In this document: piece by piece, positions 17,313 through 31,574 of the stretch
Position numbering within the stretch: position 1 is the first letter of the stretch
Layout: every line of letters begins with the position of its first letter
Virus genome (UHGV): UHGV-0263785
Reading direction: 5' to 3' (one strand)
DNA length: 42,602 bases
Source of the DNA: a virus
Position numbers and translations under genes: made by a program
The notes under the pieces: generated by a model
Told to the model about the DNA's origin: nothing
Database searches by the model: none
Seen by the model: only the letters and a program-made list of their open reading frames with translations

Positions 17313-18876
17313 CAGTTACCTCCCCAGCCGTTATCGTTGGTATTTGAGGGGTGAGATACAGACCATGACGGTTCGCTCAGCCCCATTTCACGCCGGCGCT
17401 GAATTTCGTATTCCTGCTGCTCCATAACCTCCTCGTAATCCTGTCCCTGCAGCGCCAGTTCGTTCTGATACGTGCTGAGGCCAGTTGTGATGCGCATGGC
17501 GCTCTCCTGAACCTCTTTCAGCCCATCAATCGCCATGCGACCAGCGCCGATCCAGAGCGCGTTCGTCCAGGAGTTCCGCGCCTCATAAAACGACCGGACA
17601 GCTGAGCGTGGCAGGGTGATAATTCCGCGTGCCAGCGCCTCTTCAAACCAGCAGCAGAACATCAGCGACGCCTGTCGCGCGGCGATAAAACGTCGACGCC
17701 CCATGAAAAATCGCCAGCTGACGTTAGCACTGGCCCGGGCGCTGGAGTAACTGACCTGGCTGTAGTCCCGGCTAAGTTCTTCGTATGACGCGCCAACGCC
17801 AGCTGCAACGTAACGCAGGAGTGATTTTTCCAGTGAACTAAAACCAGCATCAGCATTCTGAGCGGTCTGTAAACTGAGTTTGTCGCCGGGATGCAGGTGG
17901 GGAACTTTCACACCACCGAGCTTGATATTTGCGCCGTTGTAGTACGTCACGTAACTCTGAATAAACGAATTCAGCGGGTTCGAGTCGATATCAGTACCCG
18001 CGCCGGCGATATATTCAAACGCCTGCTGGCTGTCGAGCTCTGATTCGATTGTCGCGGCATACATCGCCATGATGATCCGCGAGGGCGTGGCTACTCACGC
18101 TTTCAACGGTGAAACCTGCGTACAACCAGTCTGGGAGAGTAGTGCCGGCAGCGTTTTTCGGACGCGATTCAAAATGGTCTCACCGAAACGGATTCGAAAT
18201 CCGGGTTACGCAGCTGACACTCAATTTCGCCGCGCCGGTGTTGATATCGATAAAAACGGGGCCGCGGTCGGGTACTGGATAGCCGAGGATACTTACCCTC
18301 TCGGCGGAGTCGGTAAATGCCGGCGTATCCCAGCACAGCTCAGCAGCGGCAGACACGCATTCATCCACATATTCGAGCCGCTCGAGGACGGACAGACCCG
18401 CGGGGACAATATTTTTTACAGCGTCATGGAGCGCCTGAAAATGCTCGACACACTGCAGCAAACACAACTGCAGAGCGCCATTGTGAAGGCGATGTATGCC
18501 GCGACAATGTGCAGTGAGGGTCCTCGGCGTATTCAGTCCACGCTACCTCGACGTCACGCGCCAGCGCCCTGGCGTCCTCGCGAGATATGCCGAGGTAACG
18601 CCAGTTAGGGCGATAACTCAACTTAAACAGATTGCCGACGATATGATCCTGGTGCAGCTGCACGGCGTTCGACGCGACGCCGTTATTGCGAACGAGATCG
18701 TCTGCTCGCGCGTTACCGCGATAAAAATTCGGCAACAGTGCTGCGTCGGCGCTCTGCTGTGGTGCGTTCCAGTCAATCAGCTGGCCACCGAAACCGGGAC
18801 CGCCGCCGTTATACCCCGCGTAACGGCGTAGTGGCGTTTTACCGTCAGGCCCGAGCAGCTGCTGCGGAGCAGTCAT
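17312..18876 (-). pseudogene. Portal protein gene (lambda gpB family) interrupted by an internal inverted block
   Basis: N-terminal part on the minus strand (18876 to about 18509: ..LLGPDGKT..YAGYNGGGPGFGGQL..RGNARADDLVRNNG..LHQDHIVG..), middle part on the PLUS strand (18069-18487: MMIREGVATHAF...FIHIFEPLEDGQTRGDNIFYSVMERLKMLDTLQQTQLQSAIVK) and C-terminal part on the minus strand (18067-17312: AMYAATIESELD...GRMAIDGLKEVQES..). Confidence 0.8.
18048..18508. repeat. Perfect 21-bp inverted repeat (18048-18068 attgtcgcggcatacatcgcc; reverse complement at 18488-18508) bracketing the inverted portal block
   Basis: Read directly; neighbouring bases do not extend the repeat. Confidence 0.85.
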
Positions 18877-27126: not shown

Positions 27127-27615
27127 ATGGCTACCAACCCAAGAGAGCACGCCCGGCGAGTGCTGGACACGTTCTGGTGCGGGCGTGGTTTCCCTGTTGA
27201 TCCAGCGAAAATTGCTCACGACATGGGATTAGATGTTTTTATTACCGATCTTCCTGGGAAAGTTTCTGGCGCACTGATTAAACAAAAAGATCAAGATCCA
27301 GCGATCTTTCTAAACAGTGATGACAACAAAGTTCGTCAACGTTTTTCATGTGGGCATGAGTTGGGGCATTACATCGCCCGGCAAGCATCGCATAGCGATG
27401 AATATGAGTACGTTGATTTACGTGGCGAAACCGCAAGCGCCGGAACGCATCCTGATGAAATTTTTGCAAACAAGTTCGCAGCAGAACTTCTGATGCCGGT
27501 AGATGAGGTCAGAAAACTGCACGCTGACGGTCAACCAAGTTATATAATGGCGCATTATTTTGGCGTATCTGACGATGCGATGACTTATCGTTTAAAGAAC
27601 TTGAGGTTGGGGTAA
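27127..27615 (+). CDS. ImmA/IrrE-family zinc metallopeptidase (COG2856-like)
   Basis: 162 aa; HEXXH motif (HELGHY) followed by ..DEIFANKFAAELLMP.. characteristic of ImmA/IrrE peptidases; GGAGGAG RBS before the ATG. Confidence 0.7.
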   Translation: MATNPREHARRVLDTFWCGRGFPVDPAKIAHDMGLDVFITDLPGKVSGALIKQKDQDPAIFLNSDDNKVRQRFSCGHELGHYIARQASHSDEYEYVDLRGETASAGTHPDEIFANKFAAELLMPVDEVRKLHADGQPSYIMAHYFGVSDDAMTYRLKNLRLG

Positions 27616-27624
27616 CGCTTTAAA

Positions 27625-28230
27625 ATGCCATCGGATGACGATTTTAACAGCCGTTTCAAACAGGAAGTAGCACGCAGACTGAAGGATTCCCTCAACCTAC
27701 ACCGTCAGTTAGCAGAAGAGGTTGAGCCGGAGGACGATGAAACTCCGGTTCAGTCTCCTGACGAAGCTTCACCTCAGCCAAAGGTTTCGCACGCCCCCAA
27801 AAAAACGGCTGTCCGTATTCGCGGAATAGCCAGAAAAAGAGCTGCCGAAGCTCGCAAAATGGCTGTAGCTGCGTCTAGCAAAAGAATTCCAACTGCTACA
27901 CCCTCTCAACAAGTCACCCGTACTGAGAGTAAAATCTTGACCGAGTTCACATCTGTGAAACAGGTGAATTCACTTGATACCGAGCATGAGCGCAAACAAC
28001 TCAACAACAAAGATTTTGAAGCAGAAATCGCTCTAAAAAAACGATACGGGAAATGGTTCCTGATTATCCTTGCTTTCCAACTTCTGATAATGAATGGTGT
28101 ATTTATTGCCGACGGCGCAGGTAAGCTGGAATTTGAGGATTTAACACTACAGTTGTACATGGGCGGTACTTTGACAGAGGTATTCGGCCTCGTGCTGGTC
28201 GTGACAAAATACCTTTTTAAACGCAAGTAA
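27625..28230 (+). CDS. Membrane protein with charged, low-complexity N-terminal region and two C-terminal TM helices; partner of the ImmA-like peptidase
   Basis: 201 aa; starts 9 bp after the peptidase stop; C-terminus ..WFLIILAFQLLIMNGVFIADGAG..LTEVFGLVLVVTKYLFKRK. Confidence 0.55.
   Translation: MPSDDDFNSRFKQEVARRLKDSLNLHRQLAEEVEPEDDETPVQSPDEASPQPKVSHAPKKTAVRIRGIARKRAAEARKMAVAASSKRIPTATPSQQVTRTESKILTEFTSVKQVNSLDTEHERKQLNNKDFEAEIALKKRYGKWFLIILAFQLLIMNGVFIADGAGKLEFEDLTLQLYMGGTLTEVFGLVLVVTKYLFKRK
28152..28230 (+). repeat. Direct repeat copy 1 (the last ~26 codons of the membrane-protein gene)
   Basis: About 79 bp, roughly 90% identical to 31575-31653; homology ends exactly at the stop codon. 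Confidence 0.8.
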
Positions 28231-28692: not shown

Positions 28693-29391
28693 TTATATTT
28701 TTCCATATTTTTTTCCGTCAAATCGAATCATGCCAGGATCAAGAAAATTAATTAAATCGATTAACGCGTGCTGTATTCTGATTAGCCTTTCTTTATAAAT
28801 TCCGATATCTCTTGTCATATTTATCACTTCATTGTTTAAATCTAAAAAAAATGGCTCATTGATAAAGCAATTTTCCTTTGTGAAACTGCCGTAACCTATG
28901 CAATCAAATCCAGTATCTGTTGATATCAGCATCTTTTCTGCAATAGCTCTCTGCTCTCCTATGAAAAACATAAAATACTGACCAAAGACGTCTGTTTGGA
29001 TTAATGAGTTAATATTGTTCTGTAATCTAATAAACTCCCTCATTTTTTTATTTTTTTCTAGGCTAAGGTATTGAATGTCTATGCGGGCAGCTTCTGTCCA
29101 TGCAAAAAACTGGGAAAAAAGAAAAACAGTATTGTTGATAACATAATCTTGTTGGCGCTTATTCCCATTATGATAAAACTCTTCAATGAACCCCAATTCT
29201 AATATATTATAAATACGGCTTTGTAAGTCTGAAGCTGAGCGAATTAACGGTTCAATATAGTACTGATGTTTTCTCCTTACATCCAGTGATTCATTGAGCT
29301 TGTTTATTCTATTCTGATTATAAGTAGATATAGCAATAGAGATTATAGCTATTGCACCACTAATAAAGCTTGAAATTAATGCCGTACCCAT
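28693..29391 (-). CDS. Membrane-anchored hypothetical protein (N-terminal TM helix), strongly AT-rich gene
   Basis: 232 aa, ATG start; N-terminus MGTALISSFISGAIAIISIAISTY; base composition clearly lower in GC than the phage backbone. Confidence 0.5.
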   Translation of the reverse strand: MGTALISSFISGAIAIISIAISTYNQNRINKLNESLDVRRKHQYYIEPLIRSASDLQSRIYNILELGFIEEFYHNGNKRQQDYVINNTVFLFSQFFAWTEAARIDIQYLSLEKNKKMREFIRLQNNINSLIQTDVFGQYFMFFIGEQRAIAEKMLISTDTGFDCIGYGSFTKENCFINEPFFLDLNNEVINMTRDIGIYKERLIRIQHALIDLINFLDPGMIRFDGKKYGKI

Positions 29392-29954
29392 CTAAAAGTC
29401 CTTTGATTCTTGCTTGGTTAACAAAATGACATAATTTTATTTAATGCCATAACAACTTAACAATATATCATAATATGATTATTATGGTGTAGCTTGTCGC
29501 ATCTACGCTCCATTACAAACAGATGTAAGATATAACCTATATGTTTTAGCCAGCAAATTCGAAAGCATTCAAAGTAGTCTCATCGAACTCTCGAAACCCT
29601 ATGTCTTCGGGTATAAAATATTTAAATCCATTTGCATAATATCGACTCATGTTTATTATATTCTCCCCATTCACCATTAAGATTTGACATTATTTTCAAC
29701 AATCGGTTATTGCAAGATTGAAATATATTTTTACTTGACACAATATTCCATGTAGCCCAGCGATTCGACTTACCCCCAACTATACGGACAATCTAAATTA
29801 AATCGATGATTTTTTGATACATTCTCCTCTCTCCATTACTTTATGTTTTTGTTCCCCAAAAATACCTTGCTCTCTAAAAAATAATTGTTCTTTAAGTTCA
29901 AAATCGAGATCTACATGAGCGTTAGATACAAAGCTAATATGTTGAAATGTCTTT

Positions 29955-29963
29955 CCCCCCCCC
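29955..29963. repeat. Homopolymeric C9 (G9 on the minus strand) tract
   Basis: Counted directly: ctttccccccccc|ataacgg. Confidence 0.9.
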
Positions 29964-30579
29964 ATAACGGCATTGTTATCTAAACTATGTTACACAAATA
30001 TAATATTACCCTTTCAACGTAATCCAAGAATAAGATTAATGCCATTATATATATCATAAATATGATATTTTGTATATTTTTATCATTTAGCCTTGATTGT
30101 ACTAGGTGTACTCTCAACGAAGTAGGGAAAGTCTGTTCCTCGCTCACAGCTGCCCTTCAGTAAGCGAAAAAATGCCTACTCGGTGCCATATACAGCCATT
30201 GTTATTAACAGCAGGGAATAATTCAAAACTGAAATTAAATATCTACCTTTTACAGTAGAAATAGTTCCTCCAGGACACTATCCATTGCCGGGCACAATCA
30301 CTCGGGGTATAACGATATAAAATATGTTCATGATAGTGCAGGTTCGTATATTAAGTTCAGCAGCGAAAACATGCCTTACAGGTTTCCGGTTTTGGGAGCG
30401 TCGTTACAGGATCCTGCGCATACCGTTCCCATCTGTTGAATTAAAGGTTTCACAGCCTTTGCCGATATCACCTTTTACCTTACCTGTGATGCGTTCAGTG
30501 CTCAGCGTTGTTTACTGTAGCTCTCGGGACTGATTACAGACCGCGTCTTAAAAACCAATCCTTACTCTAAAGGGAATTC

Positions 30580-31503
30580 ATGAGATTAAAATACTCAGTA
30601 CTCTTACTCGCCATTGCCCTTACAGGCTGTGATAACAAAAAAGATGAGATCGGTTGTTCTTCGGAAATAACCCAGTCAGCTCTCATGGATTTATTAAAAA
30701 AATCTGCTTATGAAGGACTCTCTGAACAGGTCGATAAATACCCTGATGTCACTAATCAGACCAAACGAAGCACACTGGACAAGATCAAACTAGCCATCTC
30801 TGAGATCTCCACAACATCAAGTGACACGGGCAGCACAATGAAAACTTGTGAAGGGACCGTGACGATGACTCTATCTGCGAACGAGTACGTCCAGCTTTCA
30901 GATGCTTACAGAAAGAATTTTAATCGTAATCTCGATAAGCAAATGGAAAGCCTGTTTTTGGAGAACAACGCAAACGCCTTTTCAAAACGTATCACCTACA
31001 CCGTGCAGGCGACCGACGATCAGAAAAACGTTTTTGTAAAAACCTCTACTGATAATCCGATATCAGTGGGCGCCGCTTTACTGACATCGCTTTCCATTAT
31101 CACCCCGATCGTTGAGCAGCAGAAAATCCAGCAGGCTAAGGATGCCCAACAGAGTCAAATTGAAGCGGAACAACAGGTGCAACTCAGGGCGCAAGAACAG
31201 GCTAAGTATGAGGCGGAGAAGCAAATAGAGAGACAGGCACAACTTCAGCCGCAAAAAGCTGACAACCTTGATCAGTCCCGAATGGCATTTGCGAATGCCG
31301 ACTCTGATTTGAGTACCGTCTGGAGCAAGTTAACCCCGGCGAAGAAAAAAGATTTGCTGCCTTCTCAGCGTCAGTGGATCAAAACTAAGGATGCTATGTG
31401 CGGTAAAGTTTCAATGCAGGGAACAGATGCTGAAGTCAAGAAAATGGTCGACTGCCAGACGCAAATGACCCTTTCAAGAATCGCTTTCCTCAGAAACCAA
31501 TAA
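30580..31503 (+). CDS. Lipoprotein with central Gln/Glu-rich coiled-coil and C-terminal DUF1311 (LprI-like) domain
   Basis: 307 aa; lipobox (LLAIALTGC|D); C-terminal ..SQRQWIKTKDAMCGKVSMQGTDAEVKKMVDCQTQMTLSRIAFLRNQ fits the DUF1311 pattern (Q..W...RD..C......C....T..R...L). Confidence 0.6.
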   Translation: MRLKYSVLLLAIALTGCDNKKDEIGCSSEITQSALMDLLKKSAYEGLSEQVDKYPDVTNQTKRSTLDKIKLAISEISTTSSDTGSTMKTCEGTVTMTLSANEYVQLSDAYRKNFNRNLDKQMESLFLENNANAFSKRITYTVQATDDQKNVFVKTSTDNPISVGAALLTSLSIITPIVEQQKIQQAKDAQQSQIEAEQQVQLRAQEQAKYEAEKQIERQAQLQPQKADNLDQSRMAFANADSDLSTVWSKLTPAKKKDLLPSQRQWIKTKDAMCGKVSMQGTDAEVKKMVDCQTQMTLSRIAFLRNQ

Positions 31504-31574
31504 CTGAAGTCTCCTTCAAGCTGGCGCCAGGTGTTAACCTGGTGCCAGCTTAGTCATCAAGTGCATATGTAACT

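What the first reader, a model, noticed from the sequence alone, without database searches (positions are those of the whole stretch)
30580..31503. Prophage-borne lipoprotein with a DUF1311 (LprI-like) C-terminal domain
The C-terminal ~45 residues fit the DUF1311 pattern with its two conserved cysteines, a domain associated with lysozyme-inhibitor-like proteins, attached to a lipobox and a long Gln/Glu-rich coiled coil. In a prophage island this could be a lysogenic-conversion factor that protects the envelope, or a superinfection-exclusion determinant. It is one of the two orphan genes of the island.
Basis: partly seen in the sequence, partly recalled or inferred. Interest (0 to 1): 0.35.

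Follow-up and report, generated by a model that had tools for sequence, protein, structure and literature searches.

The report
Prophage ScwA-like DUF1311 lipoprotein gene
This is a real but already annotated cargo gene of an E. coli ST131 prophage: it encodes a membrane-tethered periplasmic lipoprotein with a DUF1311 ("LprI") end domain, distantly related to Salmonella ScwA, and it probably acts on cell-wall-cutting enzymes, although its "lysozyme inhibitor" label has never been tested.

Summary
The ORF (30580-31503, +, 307 aa), its lipobox (LTGC, Cys17) and its DUF1311 domain are real. Pfam PF07007 scores 30.8 bits against a cut-off of 22, over aa 225-304. The predicted three-helix fold matches PDB 3GI7.

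The gene is not an orphan:
- RefSeq already names it "lysozyme inhibitor LprI family protein" (WP_001237642.1).
- About 439 of 5426 complete E. coli genomes carry it, including ST131 strain EC958.
- It belongs to PHROG 5094.
- Full-length homologues occur across Enterobacterales.

This is a 155-aa N-terminal domain with no Pfam or NCBIfam model, found in at least 220 representative clusters. It is followed by a 62-residue Q-rich helix of variable length with no heptad pattern.

The only studied relative is Salmonella ScwA (hhalign 98.6%, E=1e-15, both domains). ScwA changes the levels of peptidoglycan hydrolases and gives no lysozyme protection.

The gene travels as a ~1.2-kb self-contained cassette, found in lambdoid prophages, Klebsiella phage-plasmids and several chromosomes. 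It is never next to a T6SS effector. Two E. coli type I-E CRISPR spacers match it exactly.

Best reading: an inner-membrane-anchored periplasmic binder or regulator of peptidoglycan glycosidases, carried as a phage moron. It is a new member of a known kind, of modest interest.

The parts
30335..30579 (+). Leader and promoter region (~245 nt) that is transferred together with the gene. It includes the Shine-Dalgarno AAGGGA at 30570-30575.
   Evidence: It aligns with the upstream DNA of the homologues in the Citrobacter chromosome, an Enterobacter prophage and Yersinia and with the Klebsiella phage-plasmid copy. Homology ends about 245 nt upstream. Identity is 71-85%, about the same as at third codon positions (78-87%), so there is no sign of extra constraint. 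There is no Rfam match, and promoter-like sites are no more frequent than in shuffled sequence.
30580..31503 (+). CDS of the 307-aa lipoprotein (RefSeq WP_001237642.1, "lysozyme inhibitor LprI family protein").
   Evidence: Purifying selection is evident: against four homologues, codon positions 1 and 2 are 93-96% identical while position 3 is 78-87% identical.
30580..30630 (+). Signal peptide with lipobox LTGC (aa 1-17). The residues after the lipidated Cys17 are Asp-Asn.
   Evidence: Read directly from the sequence. C17 is invariant. The +2 residue is D in 18, N in 4 and G in 6 of 28 homologues. Asp at +2 is the E. coli Lol-avoidance (inner-membrane retention) signal; this rule is from my own knowledge and was not tested here.
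30643..31113 (+). N-terminal alpha+beta domain (aa 22-178) with invariant C26 and C90. The wider family shows the motifs DPNSTK-x-FC and QPTDDGK.
   Evidence: The AlphaFold2 model of the domain alone has pLDDT 91 and pTM 0.86. No Pfam or NCBIfam model covers it. The best PDB structural match is only E=0.02 with TM<=0.33. A profile search finds 220 representative clusters at E<=1e-3. It is homologous to the N-terminal region of ScwA (hhalign 93.8%, E=1.7e-7).
31057..31242 (+). Single long helix (aa 160-221). Its Q/E/A/K-rich part (aa 178-232) varies in length among homologues.
   Evidence: DSSP assigns helix 160-221 on the model. In aa 178-232 there are 18 Q, 8 A, 7 E and 5 K out of 55 residues, with no heptad pattern. 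The spacer between P176 and D241 ranges from 60 to 94 residues among 28 homologues.
31252..31491 (+). DUF1311 / LprI domain (aa 225-304), a three-helix bundle with invariant C274 and C292.
   Evidence: Pfam PF07007, 30.8 bits against a cut-off of 22. Foldseek against 3GI7 gives probability 1.00 and TM 0.65 on the target. BLASTP against the ScwA C-terminal domain gives 33% identity and E=9e-10.
31519..31550 (+). GC-rich hairpin with a 14-bp stem, 16 nt after the stop codon, lying between two convergent genes. It looks like a terminator but has no T-run.
   Evidence: The 66-nt stretch 31500-31565 that contains it folds at -32.8 kcal/mol, z-score -5.95 against shuffles. It is conserved downstream of the gene in Citrobacter, Enterobacter, Yersinia and the Klebsiella phage-plasmid. 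The consensus terminator scan did not report it, because there is no T-run.
30580..30614 (-). Protospacer A (30580-30611) plus the adjacent CAT (30612-30614), which reads as a 5'-ATG PAM on the crRNA-sense strand.
   Evidence: A 32/32 match to a spacer in the iap-cas2e type I-E array, e.g. NZ_CP022229.3. About 120 complete E. coli genomes carry this spacer.
31053..31087 (-). Protospacer B (31053-31084) plus the adjacent CAT (31085-31087), which again reads as a 5'-ATG PAM.
   Evidence: A 32/32 match to a spacer in the ygcE-queE array of NZ_CM137008.1. About 15 genomes carry it: 456 genomes match the 33-mer, against about 440 that carry the gene.

Best explanation
The gene is a self-contained phage cargo gene (a moron). 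Its product is exported by the Sec pathway and lipidated on Cys17. Because Asp follows the lipidated Cys, it is most likely kept in the outer leaflet of the inner membrane.

From that anchor the protein presents three parts: a compact disulfide-stabilised N-terminal domain; one long Q-rich helix, which would span about 9 nm if it is fully helical; and a disulfide-stabilised DUF1311 three-helix bundle held out towards the peptidoglycan layer.

By homology with Salmonella ScwA, and by the repeated use of DUF1311 proteins as immunity partners of lysozyme-like T6SS toxins, the most likely activity is binding peptidoglycan-cleaving glycosidases (lytic transglycosylases or lysozyme-fold muramidases). 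Binding would neutralise or stabilise them. The lysogen would gain either cell-wall homeostasis or protection against wall-degrading enzymes that reach the periplasm.

Shown here: the ORF, the lipobox, the domain architecture, the homology to ScwA, the moron layout, and the mobility of the cassette. Inferred, not shown: inner-membrane location, the disulfides, expression in the lysogen, the identity of the target, and any phenotype.
For: Architecture:
- Lipobox and invariant Cys17; Asp at +2.
- AlphaFold2 model with pLDDT 84: N-domain, helix 160-221, three-helix C-domain.
- The DUF1311 domain passes the Pfam threshold and matches the 3GI7 fold.
- Four invariant cysteines form two within-domain pairs.

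Homology to ScwA: hhalign 98.6%, E=1e-15 over 255 columns covering both domains. The N-domain alone gives 93.8%, E=1.7e-7. The C-domain gives BLASTP E=9e-10.

What is known of ScwA (PMC7933661): it is periplasmic, stabilised by two disulfide bridges and a DsbA/DsbB substrate. It raises MltD levels and alters Slt, AmiC, NlpC, PBP4 and AmpH. Overproduction lyses cells.

DUF1311 proteins as T6SS immunity partners:
- Etsi4 rescues the toxicity of periplasmic Etse4 (PMC12981562).
- Genomic pairing with lysozyme-like or transglycosylase effectors is reported in Pantoea and Salmonella Dublin (PMC9796082, PMC8867033).

Moron behaviour:
- The gene lies antisense to the flanking lytic genes.
- It sits at the same relative position in Enterobacter lambdoid prophages.
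- It is carried on Klebsiella ~110-kb phage-plasmids.
- 38 IMG/VR viral contigs encode a relative.
- The cassette has its own leader and hairpin.
- The coding sequence is under purifying selection.
- In Morganella the gene sits directly after the yfhM (alpha-2-macroglobulin)-pbpC operon, genes that act on the cell envelope.
Against: - No biochemical or genetic data exist for this protein or its close homologues; a search for its accession in the paper library found nothing.
- ScwA is only a remote relative (about 21% identity in the N-domain, 33% in the C-domain). It is soluble, not lipidated, and lacks the long helix, so its function may not transfer.
- The protein has no significant direct similarity to the validated immunity protein Etsi4 (BLASTP E=0.12; hhalign 0.1%).
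- It is never adjacent to an effector or T6SS gene in any context examined.
- The N-domain, which is the larger and more distinctive part, has no functional precedent and no convincing structural neighbour. The key activity could lie there rather than in DUF1311.
- No promoter was identified.
- The inner-membrane prediction rests on the +2 rule alone.
Confidence: 0.45

Rival explanations
1. It is a genuine inhibitor of host (vertebrate c-type or g-type) lysozyme, as the RefSeq product name implies, and protects the lysogen's wall from innate immunity.
For: The Pfam family is named after M. tuberculosis LprI. The protein is periplasmic and membrane-anchored like MliC-type inhibitors. It is fixed in a human extraintestinal pathogen lineage, ST131. 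One Enterobacter prophage that carries a homologue also carries an Ivy lysozyme-inhibitor gene.
Against: No MliC, Ivy or PliG domain is detected. The ScwA authors attribute lysozyme inhibition to MliC-type domains and state that no experiment supports it for the LprI domain. A Salmonella scwA deletion mutant was no more lysozyme-sensitive, with or without EDTA (PMC7933661).
Confidence: 0.1
2. It is an orphan immunity protein. It neutralises lysozyme-like or transglycosylase toxins that competitors inject into the periplasm through T6SS, or comparable bacteriocins, so the prophage gives its host a defensive edge.
For: DUF1311 proteins act, or are predicted to act, as immunity partners of peptidoglycan-targeting T6SS effectors. 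Orphan copies of such genes are kept in Pantoea hcp islands. The protein is periplasmic. It spreads horizontally as a stand-alone cassette.
Against: It is about twice the size of those immunity proteins and has an additional N-domain and a stalk helix. It has no significant similarity to Etsi4. No effector gene is adjacent in any of the contexts examined.
Confidence: 0.2
3. It is a superinfection-exclusion factor. Anchored at the inner membrane, it blocks the wall-degrading tail enzyme or the DNA-entry step of incoming phages, in the manner of T4 Sp, which inhibits the gp5 tail lysozyme (comparison from my own knowledge).
For: It is a prophage, phage-plasmid and viral-contig cargo gene. It sits in a region of the prophage that also holds defence-like genes: an ImmA/CapP-like protease, and a 232-aa membrane protein with a weak match to a DRT-associated protein. 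The predicted inner-membrane, periplasm-facing topology fits.
Against: PADLOC gives no hit. There is no homology to Llp, Cor, Sie, Imm or Sp-type proteins in Pfam, NCBIfam or PHROGs. Close homologues are ordinary chromosomal genes in Citrobacter and Pantoea with no phage nearby.
Confidence: 0.12
4. It is a decaying passenger gene with no role in E. coli.
For: No function is known. Truncated variants exist, for example a 259-aa form in E. coli (P0071). In two genomes an IS3-family element lies within the matched stretch around the gene.
Against: The reading frame is intact and 100% identical in hundreds of genomes. Non-synonymous positions are clearly more conserved than synonymous ones. The architecture, the cysteines and the lipobox are conserved across genera.
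Confidence: 0.08

Closest known systems
Salmonella Typhimurium ScwA (SL1344_0490; PMC7933661)
   Same: The two-domain build is the same: an N-terminal domain with two conserved cysteines and a C-terminal DUF1311/LprI domain with two conserved cysteines. Homology covers both domains (hhalign 98.6%, E=1e-15; N-domain alone 93.8%). Both are periplasmic, and both genes are horizontally acquired with G+C below the genome average.
   Different: ScwA has an ordinary signal peptide and is soluble; this protein has a lipobox. ScwA lacks the ~60-residue Q-rich helix. Identity is low (about 21% in the N-domain, 33% in the C-domain). The QPTDD motif is degenerate in ScwA. scwA is chromosomal, next to copA (its place between ybaP and copA follows the paper's primer names), not phage-borne.
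Pfam PF07007 (LprI / DUF1311), including M. tuberculosis LprI and P. putida PP0307 (PDB 3GI7)
   Same: The C-terminal 80 residues pass the family threshold, keep both cysteines and adopt the same helical fold. Both LprI and this protein are lipoproteins.
   Different: LprI carries an MliC domain, which the ScwA authors hold sufficient for lysozyme resistance; they note no experimental evidence that the LprI domain inhibits lysozyme (PMC7933661). That domain is absent here. PP0307 is a ~100-aa single-domain protein.
DUF1311 immunity proteins of peptidoglycan-targeting T6SS effectors (e.g. EHEC Etsi4/ECs_0213; predicted Pantoea and Salmonella Dublin pairs)
   Same: They are periplasmic DUF1311 proteins. 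This is the best experimental hint that the domain can counteract a toxin that its authors assign to the cell wall.
   Different: They are about 100-150 aa, single-domain, and encoded next to their effector. This protein has 307 aa and three parts, has no adjacent effector, and shows no significant direct similarity.
Phage morons that encode envelope lipoproteins (lambda Bor, T5 Llp, phi80/N15 Cor) and T4 Sp (from my own knowledge)
   Same: All are small autonomous genes of temperate or virulent phages whose products sit in the envelope and change the host phenotype (serum resistance, receptor blocking, tail-lysozyme inhibition).
   Different: No sequence or fold relation was detected. The function here is unknown.

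Membership tests
Pfam PF07007 LprI / DUF1311 | The profile HMM score is above the curated gathering threshold. | tested here: met
   30.8 bits against a cut-off of 22, E=4.1e-7, aa 225-304.
Pfam PF07007 LprI / DUF1311 | A conserved cysteine pair within the domain. | tested here: met
   C274 and C292 are invariant in 28 homologues and in the wider 23-sequence alignment. Disulfide formation itself was not tested.
Pfam PF07007 LprI / DUF1311 | A helical-bundle fold like the solved family member 3GI7. | tested here: met
   Foldseek probability 1.00, TM 0.64-0.65 on the target, rmsd 3.3-3.4 Å over about 90 columns. The E-value is only 0.12-0.2 because the query was the full-length model.
Bacterial lipoproteins (signal peptidase II substrates) | An N-terminal signal peptide ending in the lipobox [LVI][ASTVI][GAS]C. 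| tested here: met
   MRLKYSVLLLAIALTG|C; Cys17 is invariant. Lipidation and cleavage cannot be tested with these tools.
Inner-membrane-retained lipoproteins of Enterobacteriaceae | Asp at position +2 after the lipidated Cys (the Lol-avoidance signal; rule from my own knowledge). | tested here: met
   The sequence reads C-D-N. The +2 residue is D in 18 of 28 homologues, N in 4 and G in 6. The actual localisation cannot be tested here.
Proteinaceous lysozyme inhibitors (MliC/PliC, Ivy, PliG) | Presence of an MliC (PF09864), Ivy (PF08816) or PliG domain. | tested here: not met
   Pfam returned only LprI plus two sub-threshold, unrelated hits, even at E<=10.
Proteinaceous lysozyme inhibitors (MliC/PliC, Ivy, PliG) | Inhibition of lysozyme activity in vitro, or protection in vivo. 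| not testable with these tools
   The only data are for the remote relative ScwA, and they are negative (PMC7933661).
DUF1311 T6SS immunity proteins | The gene lies next to a cognate peptidoglycan-targeting effector or inside a T6SS island. | tested here: not met
   No effector or T6SS gene flanks the gene in E. coli, Citrobacter, Enterobacter, Pantoea, Yersinia, Morganella, Kluyvera, the ter island or the Klebsiella phage-plasmid.
DUF1311 T6SS immunity proteins | Significant similarity to a validated member (Etsi4, ECs_0213). | tested here: not met
   BLASTP E=0.12; hhalign probability 0.1%. Etsi4 itself scores below the Pfam threshold (18.7 bits).
ScwA-like two-domain periplasmic proteins | Homology across both the N-terminal domain and the C-terminal LprI domain, with four conserved cysteines. 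| tested here: met
   hhalign of the family profile against ScwA gives 98.6%, E=1e-15 over 255 columns. The N-domain alone gives 93.8%, E=1.7e-7. The alignments place C26, C90, C274 and C292 opposite ScwA C30, C100, C237 and C259.
ScwA-like two-domain periplasmic proteins | Control of the levels of peptidoglycan hydrolases (MltD and others). | not testable with these tools
   Known only for ScwA (PMC7933661).
Phage moron (autonomous cargo gene of a temperate phage) | The gene lies between phage modules, is transcribed independently of them with its own terminator, and is present in some related phages but not others. | tested here: met
   It is antisense to the flanking replication and late genes. 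A conserved hairpin follows the stop codon. The same cassette occurs in unrelated elements and in chromosomes. A promoter was not identified: the scan found no more sites than in shuffles.
Known anti-phage defence or exclusion proteins | A match to a PADLOC model or to known exclusion lipoproteins. | tested here: not met
   PADLOC returned 0 families. The only NCBIfam hint, TrbK, is sub-threshold and limited to the signal peptide (E=0.089).

The most novel reading that the evidence does not exclude
The unnamed N-terminal domain defines an undescribed, widespread family of periplasmic lipoproteins: at least 220 representative clusters, fused to DUF1311, SH3, TPR or pseudopilin-like ends. Under this reading, the phage-borne version is a new kind of lysogenic-conversion or exclusion factor. 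It would be an inner-membrane-anchored stalk that holds a DUF1311 trap at the level of the sacculus and captures muramidases that enter the periplasm, whether from phage tails, T6SS or bacteriocins. Its spread in ST131, and the presence of two exact E. coli CRISPR spacers against it, would then reflect real selective weight.
Probability: 0.15. Interest if true: 0.6.

Novelty: new member of a known kind. Interest (0 to 1): 0.3.

Why it matters
- About 8% of complete E. coli genomes carry this exact gene, including the pandemic ST131 reference strain EC958.
- Its database name asserts a function, lysozyme inhibition, that the available evidence does not support.
- The link to ScwA gives it its first experimentally studied relative and a concrete hypothesis to test: control or neutralisation of peptidoglycan glycosidases.
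- The larger N-terminal domain has no family model at all.
- If the protein protects lysogens from wall-degrading enzymes, it would be a simple, transferable envelope-defence cassette shared by prophages, phage-plasmids and chromosomes of Enterobacterales.
- If it does nothing measurable, the product name should be softened.

Tried and rejected
1. Isolated phage genomes: megablast and tblastn against INPHARED found nothing. The PHROG 5094 match therefore presumably comes from prophages.
2. Solved structures by sequence: nothing significant.
3. Structural neighbours of the N-domain: the best PDB hit had E=0.02 and TM<=0.33, with only loose resemblance to NTF2-like folds such as the PBP2a N-terminal lobe and the YcdA lipoprotein. 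BFVD gave nothing. I do not assign a fold.
4. Conserved 245-nt leader as a riboswitch or regulatory RNA: rejected as unsupported. There is no Rfam hit. RNAalifold gave an unfavourable covariation term, with 2 compensatory pairs out of 53 among 4 sequences. Indels break the 69-aa upstream ORF in the homologues. Leader identity equals third-codon-position identity.
5. Retrieving ScwA: two genome-contig scans with primer-derived patterns found nothing. A profile search seeded with a chimera did not return it. An N-domain profile search of the word-indexed database returned only 25 hits. Primer-derived fragments already mapped to the right profile positions. The full sequence finally came from a metagenome contig, next to copA.
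6. Positional orthology with scwA: the Kluyvera homologue P0115 is not at the copA locus where scwA sits.
7. E. coli lipoprotein YafT as a relative of the N-domain: rejected (hhalign 0.5%).
8. Etsi4 as a close relative: rejected.
9. Canonical coiled coil: no heptad pattern.
Full report
**Observation.** The window holds an intact ORF at 30580..31503 on the + strand (307 aa). A Shine-Dalgarno AAGGGA lies 4 nt upstream of the ATG. The product starts with MRLKYSVLLLAIALTG|C, a textbook lipoprotein signal peptide with a lipobox. Pfam PF07007 (LprI, formerly DUF1311) matches aa 225-304 at E=4.1e-7 and 30.8 bits, above the curated cut-off of 22. NCBIfam and PADLOC give nothing meaningful. PHROG 5094, of unknown function, matches at E=4e-188.

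**Anatomy.** An alignment of 28 homologues shows five invariant cysteines: C17 (the lipidation site), C26 and C90, and C274 and C292. AlphaFold2 on that alignment (mean pLDDT 84) gives four parts:
- a disordered tether after the lipobox;
- an alpha+beta N-terminal domain (aa ~29-155);
- one uninterrupted helix, aa 160-221;
- a three-helix bundle, aa 230-305.

The bundle matches the DUF1311 crystal structure 3GI7 (Foldseek probability 1.00, TM 0.65 on the target).

Modelled alone, the N-domain reaches pLDDT 91 and pTM 0.86. It still has no convincing neighbour in the PDB (best E=0.02, TM<=0.33) or among viral models.

The Q-rich segment (aa 178-232: 18 Q, 8 A, 7 E, 5 K) has no heptad hydrophobic pattern. 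The spacer varies from 60 to 94 residues among homologues. I read it as a stalk or spacer helix rather than a coiled coil.

The residue after the lipidated Cys is Asp (C-D-N). It is D in 18 of 28 homologues. In E. coli this is the classical inner-membrane retention signal. That rule comes from my own knowledge and was not tested here.

**Family.**
- Full-length homologues form 111 clusters at 90% identity, all from Enterobacterales: Citrobacter, Enterobacter, Klebsiella, Yersinia rohdei, Pantoea, Erwinia and Morganella. Most are already named "lysozyme inhibitor LprI family protein" or "DUF1311 domain-containing protein".
- An exhaustive profile search with the N-domain alone found 220 representative clusters at E<=1e-3, and 58 at E<=1e-10.
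- In a sample of 41 members, the N-domain always sits right after a signal peptide, nearly always one ending in a Cys. It is followed by LprI in 24 members, and otherwise by SH3, TPR or a GspG-like domain.
- No Pfam or NCBIfam model covers the N-domain in any of them. Its signature motifs are DPNSTK-x-FC and QPTDDGK.

**Closest studied relative.** A literature search for DUF1311 led to Salmonella ScwA (PMC7933661). ScwA is a 275-aa periplasmic protein with four conserved cysteines and a C-terminal LprI domain.
- Peptide fragments deduced from the paper's primers mapped to the expected positions of the family profile. The C100 fragment was equalled by 3 of 3000 shuffles and the C-terminal fragment by 1 of 3000.
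- After two failed genome scans, the full gene was recovered from a metagenome contig, next to copA.
- The family profile aligns to ScwA over 255 columns covering both domains (hhalign 98.6%, E=1e-15).
- The N-domain profile alone gives 93.8%, E=1.7e-7, and the alignment places ScwA C30 and C100 opposite C26 and C90.
- BLASTP of the C-domains gives 33% identity, E=9e-10.

ScwA is thus a remote member of the same two-domain family. It differs in being soluble (an ordinary signal peptide) and in lacking the long helix.

Experimentally, ScwA gives no lysozyme protection. It raises MltD and alters Slt, AmiC, NlpC, PBP4 and AmpH levels. It is stabilised by two disulfide bridges and is a DsbA/DsbB substrate. 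It lyses cells when over-produced.

**Context and mobility.**
- The exact sequence is in about 439 of 5426 complete E. coli genomes, always chromosomal, including ST131 strain EC958.
- There it lies in a prophage next to the tRNA-Leu/Cys/Gly-pgsA site. This prophage has lambda-like regulatory, replication and head genes and baseplate-type tail genes.
- Within the prophage the gene sits between the replication module and the Q/lysis module, and it is antisense to both.
- The window lies wholly inside that prophage (window coordinate = L001 coordinate + 10299).
- In the Enterobacter cloacae complex, the homologue occupies the equivalent slot of other lambdoid prophages, again antisense.
- In Klebsiella it is on ~110-kb IncFIB plasmids that encode tail proteins, DnaE and PhoH, so these are phage-plasmids.
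- 38 IMG/VR viral contigs encode a relative.
- In Citrobacter, Pantoea and Kluyvera it is a lone chromosomal gene with no phage genes nearby.
- In Yersinia rohdei it lies close to rpoD, and in one strain next to an integrase.
- In Morganella it directly follows the yfhM-pbpC operon and is also near rpoD.
- A more distant family member, P0120, lies in an island with tellurite-resistance-type (TerD/TerY) genes and an integrase.
- No context contains a T6SS effector.

The transferred unit is about 1.2 kb: about 245 nt of leader, the CDS, and a strong hairpin 16 nt after the stop codon (the 66-nt stretch containing it folds at -32.8 kcal/mol, z=-5.95). All three are conserved across genera. Third codon positions are 78-87% identical between E. 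coli and the Citrobacter, Enterobacter, Yersinia and Klebsiella copies, while positions 1 and 2 are 93-96% identical. I take such high synonymous-site identity across genera to mean recent horizontal spread; this is my inference, since no core-gene comparison was run. The contrast between codon positions shows purifying selection. The leader is no better conserved than synonymous sites and has no Rfam match, so I do not claim a regulatory RNA.

**An unexpected side result.** Two E. coli type I-E CRISPR spacers are identical to the gene.
- One matches 30580-30611. It sits in the iap-cas array of about 120 genomes.
- The other matches 31053-31084. It sits in the ygcE-queE array of about 15 genomes.
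- Each protospacer is followed by CAT, which reads as a 5'-ATG PAM on the crRNA-sense strand.
- A third spacer in the same array as the first matches the prophage portal gene with 3 mismatches.
- The gene and the first spacer co-occur in at most 1 of 562 genomes. This is confounded by phylogroup.

**Mechanism.** I commit to the following. The product is a lipoprotein retained in the inner membrane and facing the periplasm. The N-domain sits near the membrane. The roughly 9-nm helix (62 residues at 1.5 Å each, if fully helical) projects the DUF1311 bundle towards the sacculus. There it binds peptidoglycan-cleaving glycosidases and either neutralises or stabilises them.

The support is indirect. 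It rests on homology to ScwA and on the use of DUF1311 proteins as immunity partners of T6SS effectors. Etsi4 rescue of Etse4 toxicity is shown experimentally. The Pantoea and Salmonella Dublin pairs, with lysozyme-like or transglycosylase effectors, are predictions.

Against it:
- The protein has no significant direct similarity to Etsi4.
- It has no adjacent effector.
- ScwA is only a remote relative.
- The function of the N-domain is completely open.

Confidence is 0.45.

The rivals are:
- a true host-lysozyme inhibitor (0.10; no MliC domain, and ScwA is negative);
- an orphan anti-T6SS immunity protein (0.20; largely a special case of the main model);
- superinfection exclusion (0.12; no homology to known systems, and the chromosomal homologues are not phage-linked);
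- a functionless passenger (0.08; contradicted by purifying selection).

These overlap and are not meant to sum to one.

**Novelty and verdict.** But the gene is already annotated, widespread, and a member of a known domain family.
- the link to ScwA;
- the recognition of an unmodelled N-terminal domain family;
- the cassette-like mobility across prophages, phage-plasmids and chromosomes;
- the exact CRISPR spacers;
- a caution that the "lysozyme inhibitor" name is not backed by evidence.

I rate it a new member of a known kind, with interest 0.3.

Noticed in passing
window 30580-30614 and 31053-31087; L021 1170-1760; L020 1150-1640: Two E. coli type I-E CRISPR spacers (32/32 nt) match this gene exactly, each with an ATG PAM. 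One is in the iap-cas2e array of about 120 complete genomes and the other in the ygcE-queE array of about 15. The gene and the first spacer co-occur in at most 1 of 562 genomes, but this is confounded by phylogroup.
   Followed up: partly
window ~17463-17494: Another spacer in the same array (L021 spacer 4) matches the prophage portal gene with 3 mismatches. This suggests that the phage that donated the spacers resembled this prophage.
   Followed up: no
window 28693-29391 (-): The neighbouring 232-aa protein has an N-terminal hydrophobic segment, 32% G+C and no Pfam match. It has a weak PADLOC match to RTasTM, a protein listed under DRT (defence reverse transcriptase) systems (E=1.8e-5).
   Followed up: partly
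window 27127-28230 (+): An ImmA/IrrE (Peptidase_M78) gene has a strong PADLOC match to CapP (E=2.4e-25). It is followed 10 nt later by a 201-aa ORF with no family match. The pair shares the orientation of the lipoprotein gene and may be a regulator or defence module.
   Followed up: no
window 29392-30334: About 0.9 kb of AT-rich DNA (32-37% G+C) has no annotated gene, between the 232-aa gene and the start of the cassette leader. In two genomes (NZ_CM190134.1, NZ_CM190132.1) an IS3-like ISEc52 element lies within the matched stretch around the gene; its exact insertion point was not located.
   Followed up: no
L009 5178-5591: An Enterobacter lambdoid prophage that carries a homologue of this gene also carries an Ivy (inhibitor of vertebrate lysozyme, PF08816) gene between its antiterminator and terminase genes.
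   Followed up: no
L006/L007/L008 1-9002: In Morganella morganii the homologue lies 300 bp downstream of the alpha-2-macroglobulin (yfhM)-pbpC operon and on the same strand. In both Morganella and Yersinia rohdei it is close to rpoD-dnaG.
   Followed up: no
window 30685 (Met36): The PHROG 5094 profile begins at Met36 of this protein. The prophage annotations behind that family may therefore have used a later start codon and so missed the signal peptide and lipobox.
   Followed up: no
protein P0071 (E. coli, 259 aa): A 259-aa form, 100% identical over 84% of the query, stands for 166 member sequences. It may be a truncated or frameshifted allele in some E. coli.
   Followed up: no
L031 230-1057 (-): In the family alignment, the four ScwA cysteines line up as two within-domain pairs (C30/C100 and C237/C259). 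This arrangement points to within-domain disulfides, whereas the ScwA paper proposed cross-domain pairs C30-C237 and C100-C259 from a sequence predictor.
   Followed up: partly
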